A stretch of DNA of 64,000 nucleotides from a virus, in IMG/VR virus record IMGVR_UViG_3300027749_000042. One strand, given 5' to 3'. Under the pieces are notes generated by a model, which saw only the letters and a list, made by a program, of their open reading frames with translations, ran no database searches and had not been told where the DNA came from. Every line of letters begins with the position of its first letter. The stretch's first letter is position 1. Shown one piece after another: positions 31,125-47,524 of the stretch. Position numbers and translations under genes: made by a program.

Positions 31125-31202
31125 CCTCCGTTGGTGTAGCGGTCCAACATACCCGCCTTTCAAGCGCGGAGATCATCGGTTCAAATCCGATACGGAGGAC
31201 CA
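31125..31202 (+). tRNA. tRNA-Glu(TTC)
   Basis: cloverleaf, CCA. Confidence 0.9.
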
Positions 31203-31213
31203 AAAAAGAGTGG

Positions 31214-31242
31214 TTGACAAAAGAGTGCCAACCTGCTACTAT
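31214..31242 (+). promoter_or_regulatory. sigma70 promoter driving the main tRNA array
   Basis: TTGACA-17-TACTAT. Confidence 0.75.
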
Positions 31243-31259
31243 ATAAGAATAGAGAATAC

Positions 31260-31270
31260 GCTGTTTGACA
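31260..31270 (+). promoter_or_regulatory. rrn boxA-like antitermination element
   Basis: GCTGTTTGACA vs boxA GCTCTTTAACA; no -10 follows its TTGACA. Confidence 0.5.
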
Positions 31271-31346
31271 TTGCTGGTAAAGAAAAAGAAACGCCGGGGA
31301 TTCCTGCTTTTAGAGTAGGGATTCTTACCCCATCGTGGGTGTAACG

Positions 31347-31449
31347 GTTGTTTCTTCTAAAAGAGCTATGCGATGCTGCCACATCGTTAGTGGCAGCTAC
31401 AAGATATCTCGTATGGGGTATGCAAGATAGCTCTTTTAGAAGAAACAAC
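31347..31449 (+). ncRNA. structured RNA A (perfect 23-bp closing stem, two internal hairpins)
   Basis: 31347-31369 pairs with 31427-31449. Confidence 0.65.
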
Positions 31450-31645
31450 TGATTAGGTATGGTGTTATGGAAAATCCCAGTGTTCCTGGGCAGCGCACAG
31501 TCCCTGGAGCCCTCTGTCCTGCAGGCACGGCATAAACTGAGTTGTAACTGAAAAGTGGGGTTGCTCCCACGCATAAGGTTACAGATTAAAGCGAACGGTA
31601 TGACAGTCTATCCATATCCATAACATAACACCATGCCTAATCAGT
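31448..31645 (+). ncRNA. structured RNA B (22-bp closing stem, multibranched interior)
   Basis: 31448-31469 pairs with 31624-31645 (one G-U). Confidence 0.65.
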
Positions 31646-31648
31646 TTT

Positions 31649-33074: not shown

Positions 33075-33533
33075 ATGCAAAAGATGATCGTGCTTGACAA
33101 TGTGTTTGATCCTGCTATAGTAGAGCAGTTGAAAGCGTTTGATTATGGTCCGCCAATGCCACAGCGTTGGTACGATTACGGCGTTAGCGCATTGCATGAA
33201 AAGATCCTTGAAATCGCGAAGGAACATTTTGATCTATCGCAGACAACTGGTTATGAAATGTGGGTCAATCAAAAAGCCGTTGGTTGGCATTTTGACCATG
33301 ATGAATACATATATAAGCGAACGCAGGAACTGATATTTCCTGCTGTGAGCATCGTGTACTATGCACACATTGAAAACATGCAAGGTGGCGATTTCACGTC
33401 CGAGAGTTTTCGATGCACACCTAAGACAAATAGATTGGTTATGTTCTCTTCGGACATTTACCATGCTGTGTATGATTACACAGGCACACGATTTGCAATT
33501 AGTATGAATCCGTGGAATAACAGGCCCGTATAG
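33075..33533 (+). CDS. 2OG-Fe(II) oxygenase-like protein; stop codon inside tRNA-Leu
   Basis: WHFD, GG, NRLVMF, H, R. Confidence 0.8.
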   Translation: MQKMIVLDNVFDPAIVEQLKAFDYGPPMPQRWYDYGVSALHEKILEIAKEHFDLSQTTGYEMWVNQKAVGWHFDHDEYIYKRTQELIFPAVSIVYYAHIENMQGGDFTSESFRCTPKTNRLVMFSSDIYHAVYDYTGTRFAISMNPWNNRPV

Positions 33534-33615: not shown

Positions 33616-34212
33616 ATGCAGAAATTCAATTTGTTTTCAACACCAGTAGCAATTTTTGATTTGCCGGATTTTGAAAGAATCAATAAAATTATTTTAGATG
33701 GCAATCTCAAAGGTGTTGCTGAGCAAAATGGTTCAGATACTTTTGAGTATTCACAAGACAGAAATATCTGGAGTCATAGATATAATGAAGGTATAAATAT
33801 TCTTCATGATTTCTTTTTGGAATCTGCTGCCAAATATGCAACTGAATTTTTTGAGATGGAATATAAACCAGATTTCTTTAGACATGCTAGAGGGTGGATT
33901 AATTTTTGTAAATATGGGCAAGAATATAGATTTCATAGTCATCGAATGACTACGATTGCAGCCACTTATTATGTGGATGTAGGAGATAAAGGTGGGATCA
34001 TTCGACTACTCGATCCTAGATCGACGTTAGGTTGGATTAGTCTTAATCCTGAACATTATAATGTGTTCAACTATAAGCCAAAAGCTGGACAGATGATTAT
34101 GTTTCCTGGGTGGCTAGTTCATCAAGTGTCGCACAATCAAACCGATAAAGATCGTGTGGCAGTGACAACAAATATGAATCTTATTCAGAAGCACTATGCT
34201 ACCTTAGTGTAA
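33616..34212 (+). CDS. putative 2OG-Fe(II) oxygenase (TIGR02466-like); stop codon inside tRNA-His
   Basis: W.N, HSH, YYV, DPR, FPGWL.H.V, R. Confidence 0.82.
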   Translation: MQKFNLFSTPVAIFDLPDFERINKIILDGNLKGVAEQNGSDTFEYSQDRNIWSHRYNEGINILHDFFLESAAKYATEFFEMEYKPDFFRHARGWINFCKYGQEYRFHSHRMTTIAATYYVDVGDKGGIIRLLDPRSTLGWISLNPEHYNVFNYKPKAGQMIMFPGWLVHQVSHNQTDKDRVAVTTNMNLIQKHYATLV

Positions 34213-34273: not shown

Positions 34274-34282
34274 ATATAAATA

Positions 34283-34357
34283 GATCCTAGAGCATGACTG
34301 GCTATGCGGGTGTCTCTAAAACATCGAATACGGGTTCAAGTCCCGTTAGGATCACCA
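34283..34357 (+). tRNA. amber suppressor tRNA (CTA)
   Basis: gatccta/taggatc acceptor; gcat/atgc D-stem; ggtgt-ct CTA aa-acatc; acggg-ttcaagt-cccgt; ACCA. Confidence 0.88.
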
Positions 34358-34377
34358 ACTGATAATGGAGTAATAAC

Positions 34378-34416
34378 ATGAAGGTATTTTTTCTGTAGGT
34401 TTTTCGTCCCCCATGA
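34378..34416 (+). CDS. minigene MKVFFL-(amber)-VFRPP-stop
   Basis: GGAG 7 nt before ATG; in-frame TAG at 34396, TGA at 34414. Confidence 0.5.
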
Positions 34417-34425
34417 ATTTTCTTA

Positions 34426-34454
34426 TTGACTTTGAATAATCACTATCGTATAAT
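34426..34454 (+). promoter_or_regulatory. sigma70 promoter
   Basis: TTGACT-17-TATAAT. Confidence 0.75.
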
Positions 34455-34478
34455 GTTAACATCAATAAGGAAACCAAC

Positions 34479-34895
34479 ATGTCTATCAAGTTAAAGATCA
34501 AGTCTAAACATCTCGCATTGGAAGCTGGCGTCATTCGGTTCGAGGAACAGAAACTCAAGCGCCAGATTGAATGGCTCAAGACACACCAAAAGGACGAGAC
34601 TAAAGTTCGTTTTATGTGGAAGTCATTGAATAGCCATCGTCGTTTTGATGTTCGCAATGAAGCTCGTGCTACTCTTCTCGCTCGCGCATACATAGAAGGG
34701 CGAATTTACAAAACGGTAGAACATTGTCGTAAAGATAATGGTACGTTCAAGACGTATATTTTGCCTCGTATTGTTTCAATGGTCATCAAATATGAGCATG
34801 GAAAAATTGAAAAGTTTATGAAGCCAGACGATGTAAAAGCCGTGCGCGACGAGGTCGTAGCGTGGCTTGAAGGTCAAGTCTGGGTTCAAGTATAA
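34479..34895 (+). CDS. basic conserved phage hypothetical protein
   Basis: AAGGA RBS; LKIK.K.LA.EA..IR.EE...VR.EAR...LARAY. Confidence 0.7.
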   Translation: MSIKLKIKSKHLALEAGVIRFEEQKLKRQIEWLKTHQKDETKVRFMWKSLNSHRRFDVRNEARATLLARAYIEGRIYKTVEHCRKDNGTFKTYILPRIVSMVIKYEHGKIEKFMKPDDVKAVRDEVVAWLEGQVWVQV

Positions 34896-35353: not shown

Positions 35354-35429
35354 GCCGTCTAAGCTAATCTAGTGAAAGCGCCTGCCTGAAGAGCTGGAGA
35401 GCTTGGAGCGTAACCAAGAGACGGCACCA
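35354..35429 (+). tRNA. tRNA-Phe(GAA), atypical D/T loops
   Basis: all four stems pair; T-loop AGCGTAA; CCA. Confidence 0.82.
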
Positions 35430-35430
35430 T

Positions 35431-35438
35431 TATAAATA
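35431..35438 (+). promoter_or_regulatory. T4-type late promoter
   Basis: TATAAATA upstream of HNH gene. Confidence 0.65.
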
Positions 35439-36570: not shown

Positions 36571-36586
36571 TATAAATAGACTAAAT

Positions 36587-47095: not shown

Positions 47096-47107
47096 TTGTG
47101 TTATGAT
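47079..47107 (+). promoter_or_regulatory. sigma70 promoter
   Basis: TTGACA-17-TATGAT. Confidence 0.75.
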
Positions 47108-47128
47108 GAATTCAAATCGGAGTTCGTC

Positions 47129-47524
47129 ATGGCTATCCTTCCAATCTACTACACCACCACCAATTTTCGCAAACGCAAGGCTTCGTTGCCCACACGCGCA
47201 TCCGAGGAGTCTGCTCGTAAAACTGCAGAACTTCTGGCGCGTGTGGGCTACGTCAAACGTGATCGTGCGCCAGTCAAAGCCAAAGCAGACCAGTGGCAGA
47301 ATGAGCGCAATGTGGCACCTTTGACAGATGCTATTCCTGGCGGCATTGCAGCCAAGCGCGACAAGCTCAATGACCACAAGTGGAAGCGTGGGCTTGAAGA
47401 GACCAAAGAGACAATCAAAGAAATCCAAAACAAGGCTGCGCGTACTGCACCCGCGTATTCCAAAGGCGCTTACCAGTATATCACTGATGGCGCAGATACC
47501 AAAACTCTCGGTCGTAAAATCTAG
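47129..47524 (+). CDS. conserved basic phage protein
   Basis: GGAG RBS; APAYSKGAYQYI. Confidence 0.7.
   Translation: MAILPIYYTTTNFRKRKASLPTRASEESARKTAELLARVGYVKRDRAPVKAKADQWQNERNVAPLTDAIPGGIAAKRDKLNDHKWKRGLEETKETIKEIQNKAARTAPAYSKGAYQYITDGADTKTLGRKI

What the first reader, a model, noticed from the sequence alone, without database searches (positions are those of the whole stretch)
34275..34416. Amber suppressor tRNA immediately followed by an amber-containing minigene ending in Arg-Pro-Pro-stop
Seen: a complete CUA-anticodon tRNA (34283-34357). Twenty nt later lies GGAG-N7-ATG AAG GTA TTT TTT CTG TAG GTT TTT CGT CCC CCA TGA, i.e. MKVFFL*VFRPP*. The rest of the window uses TAG as a normal stop in about 10 genes, so the genome is not recoded. 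Known: C-terminal Pro-Pro slows termination and provokes SsrA tagging, and RxPP-type motifs occur in arrest peptides. Inference: a self-contained sensor in which charged suppressor versus RF1 decides whether the ribosome reaches a stall motif, perhaps controlling processing or transcription of the array, or titrating release factors. A TATAAATA late box directly precedes the tRNA.
Basis: partly seen in the sequence, partly recalled or inferred. Interest (0 to 1): 0.85.

Follow-up and report, generated by a model that had tools for sequence, protein, structure and literature searches.

The report
Stop-codon-gated leader beside phage suppressor tRNA
A T4-like phage that uses the normal genetic code carries a UAG-reading tRNA followed by a tiny leader gene that can be read to its end only if that UAG is overridden. 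Comparison with about 115 related phage loci suggests this switches on translation of the next gene, which would give such phage suppressor tRNAs a concrete target.

Summary

**What is in the window**
- tRNA(CUA), 34283-34357.
- Leader: SD GGAG, N7, then ATG..TAG..CGT CCC CCA TGA (34378-34416).
- TAG is an ordinary stop elsewhere in the window.

**What the relatives show**
- 106 of 115 loci carrying the downstream 138-aa gene have the same design: SD, start, 0-9 codons, TAG, 2-6 codons, Pro-Pro.
- There are 69 distinct nucleotide versions. Pro codons use all four third bases, and the final stop swaps between TAA and TGA.
- Seven further loci are amber-gated through longer upstream ORFs.
- The one lineage whose neighbouring tRNA has anticodon UCA has TGA as the internal stop.
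- The sequence at or just after the final stop pairs with the Shine-Dalgarno of the 138-aa gene, with covariation (permutation 0/2000).
- Variants replace the stall with an ATGA overlap or an in-frame fusion, which keeps the same logic.

**Best reading (about 0.7)**
- RF1 termination at UAG leaves the start site of ORF138 masked.
- Read-through parks a ribosome at [R/K/H]-Pro-Pro-stop and unmasks it.
- The function of ORF138 is unknown.
- Nothing here is experimentally tested.

**Novelty**
- I found no paper describing this.
- The scan has noted the same leader design on other phage DNA, there in front of PTH2-like genes.
- Two cultured phages carry the module: Synechococcus phage BUCT-ZZ01 and DSS3_MAL1.

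The parts
34275..34282 (+). TATAAATA, a T4-type late-promoter-like box directly 5' of the tRNA
   Evidence: Sequence. There are 7 copies in the window, all on the + strand, against 2.78 expected. A TATAAATA or NATAAATA box lies 0-8 nt upstream of tRNA(CUA) in 16 of 61 distinct relatives. Its function is inferred.
34283..34357 (+). tRNA with anticodon CUA (amber suppressor), CCA encoded, short variable loop, G8
   Evidence: ARAGORN, Rfam 50.9 bits and a cloverleaf MFE fold. Relatives show compensatory changes in the anticodon stem with CUA kept. There are 66 distinct homologous or analogous tRNAs; all encode CCA, and 65 read UAG. The amino acid it carries is unknown.
34367..34370 (+). Shine-Dalgarno GGAG of the minigene, 7 nt before its ATG
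   Evidence: Sequence. An SD-like motif is kept in relatives.
34378..34416 (+). Leader minigene: ATG AAG GTA TTT TTT CTG TAG GTT TTT CGT CCC CCA TGA (MKVFFL-amber-VFRPP-stop). The internal TAG is at 34396-34398 and Arg-Pro-Pro at 34405-34413.
   Evidence: It is conserved in frame with codon-like variation in 106 of 115 loci.
34418..34429 (+). 5' arm of the anti-SD hairpin (TTTTCTTATTGA), starting 2 nt after the minigene stop
   Evidence: RNAfold. The duplex with the locus's own SD region is conserved with covariation in 61 distinct loci.
34426..34454 (+). Sigma-70-like promoter TTGACT-N17-TATAAT inside the hairpin. Transcripts from it would lack the 5' arm.
   Evidence: Consensus scan scores 11/12. 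The hexamers are kept with a variable spacer in the close clade. It is not general to the family. Its function is inferred.
34462..34473 (+). 3' arm of the hairpin (TCAATAAGGAAA), containing the SD AAGGA (34467-34471) of ORF138
34479..34895 (+). ORF138, a conserved all-helical 138-aa protein of unknown function and the gated gene
   Evidence: ORF list. 351 homologues in the first search and 2487 clusters in the profile search. AF2 pLDDT 89.5. No Pfam, PHROG, NCBIfam, PADLOC or PDB match.

Best explanation
This is a suppression-gated translational attenuator. The tRNA(CUA), the leader and ORF138 are presumably made from one transcript.

**Off state.** A ribosome starts at the leader's SD and ATG. 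If RF1 terminates it at the in-frame UAG, it stops about 20 nt short of a hairpin in which the sequence right after the leader's last stop pairs with the Shine-Dalgarno of ORF138. ORF138 then stays untranslated.

**On state.** If the phage's charged tRNA(CUA) decodes the UAG, the ribosome moves five codons further to Arg-Pro-Pro-UGA. That is a slow-termination context, with Arg/Lys/His at -2 and Pro at the P site, as in RAPP-type arrest. Parked there, the ribosome covers and melts the 5' arm, frees the SD, and ORF138 is translated.

**Net effect.** ORF138 synthesis from read-through transcripts reports that the suppressor tRNA is made, processed, charged and winning against RF1.

**Bypass in this clade.** In the window's clade a sigma-70-like promoter inside the hairpin loop would give an additional ungated early transcript.

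**Shown:** conservation, coding signature, covariation and geometry.

**Inferred:** translation of the leader, stalling, unmasking, and which amino acid is inserted.
For: 1. **The leader is conserved.** 106 of 115 loci with an ORF138 homologue and at least 200 nt upstream carry SD, start, 0-9 codons, internal stop, 2-6 codons, CCN CCN. There are 69 distinct nucleotide versions (examples).
2. **It has a coding signature across the stop.**
   - The close clade differs mostly at third positions (AAG/AAA, TTT/TTC, CTG/CTC, CAT/CAC, CCC/CCT) and by TGA<->TAA at the end.
   - Pro codons use all four third bases.
   - The nearest in-frame stop upstream of Pro-Pro is TAG in 56 of 57 configurations and never TAA.
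3. **The tRNA and the leader are linked.**
   - 69 of 78 viral loci have tRNA(CUA) upstream, mostly 99-126 nt from the ORF.
   - The single lineage with tRNA(UCA) has ATG TTG TGA ... CCA CCT TAA.
4. **The anti-SD hairpin covaries.**
   - Own-pair duplex energy averages -13.3 kcal/mol, against -7.5 for cross-locus pairs and -5.6 for shuffled arms.
   - The locus's own SD ranks in the best 10% in 49 of 61 loci, and the permutation test gives 0/2000.
   - The 5' arm starts -6 to +6 nt from the final stop (folds).
5. **Alternative architectures keep the same logic.**
   - The leader runs through the hairpin to a TGA overlapping the ORF138 ATG in the L066 group.
   - It is fused in frame to ORF138 in L088 and L104.
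   - An ~85-codon gene with TAG at codon 3-4 that ends in PP-stop takes the leader's place in L053-56, L094 and L138.
6. **The tails match known stall motifs.**
   - [R/K/H]PP is followed by a stop in 48 of 50 versions.
   - RGPP, RDPP, RSPP and REPP tails are followed by sense codons in 5 of 9.
   - RAPP-like motifs are published EF-P-resistant arrest motifs (PMC10951233, PMC12992588).
7. **The context of the internal stop favours read-through.** The next base is A in 45, G in 17, C in 7 and T in 0 versions. From my own knowledge of amber context effects, a purine favours suppression.
8. **The genome is not recoded.**
   - This holds for the window and for G001.
   - The gp23 and gp20 homologues of four related records (G002-G005) have no in-frame stops.
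Against: - There are no expression, toeprint or Ribo-seq data, so every mechanistic step is inferred.
- The 126-nt spacer does not fold better than shuffles (z = +0.60), and the hairpin is modest (-12.7 kcal/mol). Its support comes from covariation only.
- The internal sigma-70-like promoter means some ORF138 mRNA may bypass the gate in this clade.
- Five of 58 final stops are TAG, which the suppressor could also read.
- The opal case is one lineage with identical copies.
- Most loci were found through ORF138, so the census does not show that every tRNA(CUA) has a leader. Unrelated phage tRNA(CUA) genes lack one.
- The tRNA has G8 instead of U8, and its aminoacylation is untested.
- The function of ORF138 is unknown, so the purpose of the gate is unexplained.
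Confidence: 0.7

Rival explanations
1. RF1 or termination-capacity sensor. The same leader and hairpin work as described, but the physiologically varying input is host RF1 activity or general termination and rescue capacity during infection, with the tRNA(CUA) as a constant partner.
For: - The UAG is a competition site by nature.
- By an unchecked first-reader note, the genome also carries a tmRNA and a possible ArfA-like ORF.
- prfB uses an in-frame stop to sense RF2 (own knowledge).
Against: - The tight physical linkage of the tRNA and the leader points to the tRNA as the matched partner.
- So does the switch of the internal stop to TGA with tRNA(UCA).
- The two readings are not exclusive.
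Confidence: 0.12
2. Timer or AND-gate with no sensing role. The amber codon only delays ORF138 synthesis until the tRNA has accumulated, forming a feed-forward loop. The Pro-Pro-stop serves only ordinary translational coupling.
For: - The tRNA and its target appear to be co-transcribed.
- Synthetic suppressor-tRNA feed-forward gates behave this way (PMC7969014, abstract).
- Coupling variants exist.
Against: - This describes a purpose for the same mechanism and does not offer a different one.
- It does not explain the strong conservation of [R/K/H]PP or RxPP tails better than stalling does.
Confidence: 0.1
3. Untranslated RNA element. The region is conserved as a tRNA 3' trailer, a processing site or a promoter UP element, and the reading frame is incidental.
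For: - The region lies between a tRNA and a promoter.
- It is 100% identical between the window and its ~91%-identical relatives.
Against: - That identity run is not exceptional locally.
- Distant relatives keep the frame, the SD, the start, the internal TAG and Pro-Pro with otherwise unrelated nucleotides and different lengths.
- Pro codons vary at third positions, and the final stop changes TGA<->TAA.
Confidence: 0.03
4. Toxic bar-like minigene. A short ORF that traps peptidyl-tRNA or release factor to damage host translation.
For: - It is a very short ORF with a strong SD.
- Some relatives have a start-stop form, ATG/TTG then TAG.
Against: - It does not explain the conserved in-frame post-TAG codons, the Pro-Pro, the covarying hairpin onto the ORF138 SD, or the fusion and overlap variants.
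Confidence: 0.03

Closest known systems
Leader-peptide translational attenuators (ermC, cat, cmlA leaders)
   Same: A short SD-led upstream ORF. A hairpin sequesters the SD of the next gene. A ribosome paused at a defined leader codon melts the 5' arm and switches the gene on.
   Different: The input is not an antibiotic. Access to the pause site is gated by decoding of an in-frame stop codon by a co-encoded suppressor tRNA. The system is phage-borne.
RAPP/RGPP arrest peptides ApdA, ApdP, and SecM (PMC10951233, PMC12992588)
   Same: The C-terminal tails have Arg two residues before a P-site Pro. Relatives carry true RGPP, RDPP or RSPP. They regulate the downstream gene.
   Different: The window has R-P-P followed by a stop, so the pause would be at termination and not at Pro-Pro bond formation. 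The leaders are 10-20 codons long with no signal sequence, and they are not upstream of sec or yidC genes.
PepNL of E. coli (PMC11890864)
   Same: A tiny leader in which the balance between stop-codon read-through and release-factor action sets the regulatory state.
   Different: In PepNL, read-through by Trp-tRNA of the terminal UGA relieves the arrest. Here, read-through of an internal UAG is needed to reach the arrest site, and a dedicated suppressor tRNA does it.
prfB (RF2) autoregulation by an in-frame UGA
   Same: An in-frame stop codon early in a message acts as a kinetic sensor of termination against an alternative decoding event.
   Different: In prfB the alternative event is a +1 frameshift and the regulated product is the release factor itself. 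Here it is tRNA suppression, and the product is an unknown helical protein.
Stop-codon-recoded phages with suppressor tRNAs (Borges et al., bioRxiv 10.1101/2021.08.26.457843)
   Same: A phage-encoded tRNA reads UAG or UGA and makes the expression of phage genes conditional on it.
   Different: Those phages have in-frame stops in many structural and lysis genes. Here the code is standard and the only evident client is one leader (or one small gene).
Synthetic amber-suppressor feed-forward gates (PMC7969014)
   Same: Target expression requires a co-expressed suppressor tRNA.
   Different: Those gates are engineered, with the amber codon inside the target gene. They do not use a leader peptide or SD unmasking.

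Membership tests
tRNA (Rfam RF00005) | Covariance-model score above the gathering threshold and a cloverleaf fold | tested here: met
   50.9 bits against 29, ARAGORN and a cloverleaf MFE fold.
Functional amber suppressor tRNA | Anticodon CUA kept under structural selection | tested here: met
   Compensatory stem changes occur with CUA retained. There are 66 distinct sequences with intact stems and an encoded CCA; 65 keep CUA and one reads UCA.
Functional amber suppressor tRNA | Aminoacylated and active at UAG in the host | not testable with these tools
   This needs an acylation northern, a reporter or mass spectrometry. G8 instead of U8 is unusual.
Leader-peptide translational attenuator (ermC/cat type) | A short upstream ORF with its own SD and start | tested here: met
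   GGAG-N7-ATG, conserved in relatives.
Leader-peptide translational attenuator (ermC/cat type) | A hairpin masks the downstream SD, with its 5' arm within reach of a ribosome at the pause codon | tested here: met
   34418-34429 pairs with 34462-34473. Covariation across 61 loci gives a permutation result of 0/2000, and the arm starts -6 to +6 nt from the final stop.
Leader-peptide translational attenuator (ermC/cat type) | The ribosome actually pauses, and the pause induces the downstream gene | not testable with these tools
   Only stall-type sequence motifs are seen.
RAPP-type arrest peptides (ApdA/ApdP) | An R-x-P-P core, with x = A, G, S or D | tested here: not met
   The window has F-R-P-P-stop. 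True RGPP, RDPP, RSPP or REPP cores occur only in 9 of 69 relatives' versions.
RAPP-type arrest peptides (ApdA/ApdP) | Encoded upstream of protein-localisation genes, with an N-terminal signal or TM segment | tested here: not met
   The leader has 12 codons. The downstream gene is a soluble helical protein with no family.
Stop-codon-recoded phage (code 15 or 4) | Many genes, especially late ones, carry in-frame TAG or TGA | tested here: not met
   Coding density is high under code 11. TAG ends about 10 plus-strand genes. The gp23 and gp20 homologues of four related records have no internal stops.
T4-like phage (Kyanoviridae/Straboviridae-type) | gp23 major capsid and gp20 portal | tested here: met
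   Strong hits in the related records G002-G005. A cultured relative of the module is classed in Kyanoviridae. The window itself holds only early and metabolic genes.
lambda bar-type toxic minigene | A 2-3 codon ORF whose only conserved part is start, last sense codon and stop | tested here: not met
   The conserved in-frame post-stop codons and Pro-Pro argue against it.

The most novel reading that the evidence does not exclude
ORF138 may itself act on decoding of stop codons. It could antagonise RF1, or bind the suppressor tRNA or the ribosome. The tRNA, leader and ORF138 would then form a closed feedback circuit that sets, or flips, the level of UAG read-through in the infected cell. Such a minimal natural code-switch module in a standard-code phage could be the evolutionary seed of phage stop-codon recoding.
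Probability: 0.15. Interest if true: 0.95.

Novelty: new variant of a known kind. Interest (0 to 1): 0.85.

Why it matters
- Suppressor tRNAs turn up in many standard-code phages with no known purpose. This module gives them a specific, conserved cis target and a testable function.
- It would be a natural leader-peptide switch whose control codon is a stop codon read by a dedicated tRNA. It joins three well-studied themes: attenuation, Pro-Pro or RAPP-like stalling, and nonsense suppression.
- It would be a natural counterpart of synthetic amber-gated circuits.
- It flags a very large uncharacterised phage protein family (2487 clusters) as probably tied to translation.
- Two cultured phage-host pairs carry the module, so it can be tested directly.

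Tried and rejected
- **GenBank phages, DNA searches.** Near and distant searches found nothing.
- **Nearest relatives.** G001, L002, L006 and L007 are identical in the leader. The 126-nt identical run is not exceptional against local divergence, so they carry no information about it.
- **Exact tRNA 3'-half pattern.** It returned only the same four contigs.
- **Function of ORF138.**
  - No match in Pfam, PHROG, NCBIfam, PADLOC or by PDB sequence.
  - Foldseek against PDB gave nothing at E <= 0.001. The wide structural search gave only generic helical hairpins at Z about 8, including the SerRS N-terminal arm over about 64-75 residues, which is below what counts for helical proteins.
  - BFVD gave only uncharacterised relatives.
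  - The profile search found no fused domains among the best 150 hits.
- **Other amber clients in the window.**
  - The 86-codon open frame after the TAG of gene 47096-47524 is a separate gene in relatives.
  - A scan for ORFs preceded by start..TAG gave nothing convincing.
- **tRNA(UCA) at 31125-31202.** No TGA leader follows it.
- **PTH2.** The earlier scan notes on other phages describe PTH2-like genes behind such leaders. PTH2 is absent from G001-G004.
- **Amino-acid identity of the tRNA.** Its best resemblance within the window is weak: the acceptor stem is like tRNA-Asp and the anticodon loop like tRNA-Trp. It stays undetermined.
- **L154.** This short contig does not fit the pattern.

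Full report
**1. The observation**

| Element | Coordinates |
|---|---|
| TATAAATA | 34275-34282 |
| tRNA, anticodon CUA | 34283-34357 |
| GGAG | 34367-34370 |
| ATG (7 nt after GGAG) | 34378 |
| TAG | 34396-34398 |
| CGT CCC CCA | 34405-34413 |
| TGA | 34414-34416 |

- The tRNA is supported by ARAGORN, Rfam at 50.9 bits against a cut-off of 29, and a cloverleaf MFE fold.
- It sits in an array of 28-29 tRNA genes, all on the plus strand. The array also holds a tRNA(UCA) at 31125-31202.
- A crude gene call gives stops TAA 52, TGA 35, TAG 16. About ten plus-strand genes end in TAG.
- Coding density is already high under code 11, so the window is not recoded.
- The strict motif occurs once in the window, against 0.18 expected in shuffles (0.01 with an SD).

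**2. What kind of phage this is**

- The window holds early and metabolic genes: ribonucleotide reductase, primase, a cytidyltransferase, an aminotransferase and radical-SAM enzymes.
- The nearest held record, G001, is about 96-98% identical over most of the shared region.
- Records carrying the same module (G002-G005, 154-318 kb) encode T4-type gp23 and gp20 with no internal stops.
- Two cultured phages carry the module:
  - Synechococcus phage BUCT-ZZ01 (Kyanoviridae). Its leader is MGGDAS-amber-INLKPP-TAA.
  - Bacteriophage DSS3_MAL1. Its tRNA is annotated tRNA-Pyl and its leader is MKS-amber-IRPPP-TGA.

**3. The minigene is conserved as a coding unit that runs across the stop**

- The closest relatives are identical in the leader and give no information.
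- In L006 and L007 the tRNA itself has about ten changes, including compensatory ones in the anticodon stem, with CUA kept.
- Using the downstream 138-aa protein as a handle, I examined 115 loci with at least 200 nt upstream.
- 106 of them carry SD, start, 0-9 codons, an internal stop, 2-6 codons, then CCN CCN. There are 69 distinct nucleotide versions.
- Example leaders:

| Locus | Leader peptide and final stop |
|---|---|
| window | MKVFFL*VFRPP(TGA) |
| L015 | MKVFFL*VFHPP(TGA) |
| L017 | MKAYFL*VFHPP(TAA) |
| L019 | MKAYFF*VFHPP(TAA) |
| L021 | MKDMRL*IRPP(TAA) |
| L034 | MERYFA*LFKPP(TAA) |
| L032 | MSVLA*IRKPP(TAA) |
| L035 | MMYREGWEGL*PFKPP(TGA) |
| L036 | MSEQAVGG*NLIPP(TAA) |

- Within the close clade the differences are mostly synonymous third-position changes, and the last stop switches between TGA and TAA.
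- Across the family, Pro codons use all four third bases.
- Walking upstream in frame from Pro-Pro with any stop allowed, the first stop is TAG in 56 of 57 configurations and never TAA.
- L021 and L027 were found through a tRNA pattern, not through ORF138, and show the same trio.

**4. The link to the tRNA**

- 69 of 78 viral loci have a tRNA(CUA) upstream, usually ending 99-126 nt before ORF138.
- Several apparent exceptions have CUA tRNAs that ARAGORN miscalled because of odd anticodon loops.
- In L109 (identical to L130 and L131) the neighbouring tRNA has anticodon UCA. The leader there reads ATG TTG TGA GTA TAC GCG CCA CCT TAA.
- So the internal stop follows the anticodon, and the final stop is one that the tRNA does not read.
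- This is one lineage only, but it is the change the model predicts.
- Unrelated phage tRNA(CUA) genes (L023, L028, L029) have no leader. The leader therefore belongs to this module and is not a feature of every suppressor tRNA.

**5. The output**

- In the window, 34418-34429, which starts 2 nt after the leader's TGA, pairs with 34462-34473. That 3' arm contains the SD AAGGA of ORF138, whose ATG is at 34479.
- The same arrangement is the MFE structure in every locus tested, built from quite different sequences.
- Over 61 distinct loci:
  - The duplex between a locus's own post-stop segment and its own SD region averages -13.3 kcal/mol.
  - Cross-locus pairs average -7.5 and shuffled arms -5.6.
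  - The locus's own SD ranks in the best 10% in 49 of 61 loci.
  - The permutation test gives 0/2000.
  - The 5' arm starts -6 to +6 nt from the first base of the final stop.
- Geometry (inference from known ribosome footprints):
  - With TAG in the A site, the ribosome's leading edge ends a few nucleotides before the arm.
  - With the final stop in the A site, the ribosome covers most of the arm.
  - The mode of five codons between TAG and the final stop (three, then Pro-Pro) fits that distinction.

**6. Variants that keep the same logic**

- In the L066 group the post-TAG frame continues through the hairpin and ends at a TGA overlapping the ORF138 ATG.
- In L088 and L104 the frame runs in frame into ORF138.
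- In L053-56, L094 and L138 the leader is replaced by an ~85-codon gene with TAG at codon 3-4. It still ends in Pro-Pro-TAA inside the anti-SD arm.
- L108 has a longer ORF, then TAG, then KVFKPP-TAA.
- In all of these, ORF138 translation would depend on read-through.

**7. The stall motif**

- The residue before Pro-Pro is K in 21 versions, R in 18 and H in 12.
- [R/K/H]PP is followed by a stop in 48 of 50 versions.
- Nine versions carry RGPP, RDPP, RSPP or REPP, and five of those continue with sense codons.
- RAPP-like sequences, RGPP above all, are published EF-P-resistant arrest motifs (PMC10951233; PMC12992588).
- At R-P-P-stop the Arg sits two residues before the P-site Pro, as in R-A-P|P. 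The A-site ligand would be a release factor instead of Pro-tRNA. This parallel is my inference.
- That C-terminal prolines slow termination is my own knowledge (Hayes, Bose and Sauer 2002).

**8. Promoters**

- TTGACT-N17-TATAAT at 34426-34454 lies inside the hairpin.
  - Transcripts from it would start at about 34461 and lack the 5' arm, so they would escape the gate.
  - It is conserved in the close clade but not family-wide.
- TATAAATA is enriched and strand-biased in the window.
  - It recurs just upstream of tRNA(CUA) in 16 of 61 contexts.
  - Here it abuts tRNA nucleotide 1, so a T4-type start would fall inside the tRNA.
  - Its role is open.

**9. ORF138**

- It belongs to a very large stand-alone family of 110-180 aa proteins, with 2487 clusters at E <= 0.001.
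- It has invariant polar residues (alignment A2).
- The model is confident and all-helical, with a long helical hairpin (pLDDT 89.5).
- No family, PDB or informative fold match was found.
- Its function is unknown.

**10. Comparison with what is known, and novelty**

- Five full-text searches, three of them aimed at suppressor tRNAs or leader peptides, and reading of Borges et al. found no description of a leader gated by a suppressor tRNA.
- The closest published things are:
  - ermC/cat attenuators;
  - RAPP and SecM arrest peptides;
  - PepNL;
  - prfB;
  - recoded phages;
  - synthetic amber gates.
- This scan's earlier, unpublished AI notes describe the same amber..Pro-Pro-stop leader design in other giant phages, mostly in front of PTH2-like genes. 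PTH2 is absent from this lineage.
- I file this as a new variant of a known kind: leader-peptide attenuation with a new input.

**11. Verdict**

| Question | Verdict |
|---|---|
| Observation | confirmed |
| Best explanation | suppression-gated unmasking of the ORF138 start site, confidence about 0.7 |
| Experimental status | untested |

Noticed in passing
L053:874-1140 and L094:895-1149 (relatives): An ~85-codon gene of unknown family starts ATG TCT TTA TAG (or ATG TCG TAG) and ends Pro-Pro-TAA in the anti-SD arm. It is a real protein gene that appears amber-gated at codon 3-4 and takes the place of the leader.
   Followed up: partly
L087:942-1017, L071:222-297, L100:886-959: tRNAs near start-stop leaders (ATG/TTG TAG ...KPP) have odd anticodon loops. 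Two have a 6-nt loop CCCUAA and one has UUCUAGC. ARAGORN calls their anticodon 'ct'.
   Followed up: partly
window 35354-35429: Rfam finds a tRNA (41.6 bits) with anticodon GAA that ARAGORN misses. Its T-loop (AGCGTAA) lacks the usual TTC. Relatives have a normal tRNA-Phe at this place.
   Followed up: no
window 31203-31648: After tRNA(UCA) comes a TTGACA-N17-TACTAT promoter-like site. A long imperfect inverted repeat follows at about 31350-31450, in a 450-nt stretch with no convincing gene. Relatives have tRNA-Glu(CUC) directly after the tRNA(UCA) instead.
   Followed up: no
window 36571-36578 and 35431-35438: Further TATAAATA boxes sit at tRNA junctions. One lies 8 nt before tRNA-Trp. The other lies just after the odd tRNA and before the HNH gene.
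   Followed up: no
L123:3385-3803 (Synechococcus phage BUCT-ZZ01): ARAGORN predicts a permuted tmRNA with tag ANDETFSMALAA about 500 nt downstream of the ORF138 homologue. A first-reader note reports a permuted tmRNA in this window's genome too.
   Followed up: no
window 34283-34357 and relatives: The suppressor tRNA has G8-A9 instead of U8 in 19 of 66 distinct sequences. The discriminator base varies (A in 51, G in 13).
   Followed up: partly
window 33075-33533, 33616-34212: Two 2OG-Fe(II) oxygenase-like genes inside the tRNA array take their stop codons from within the following tRNA genes (Leu-CAA and His).
   Followed up: no
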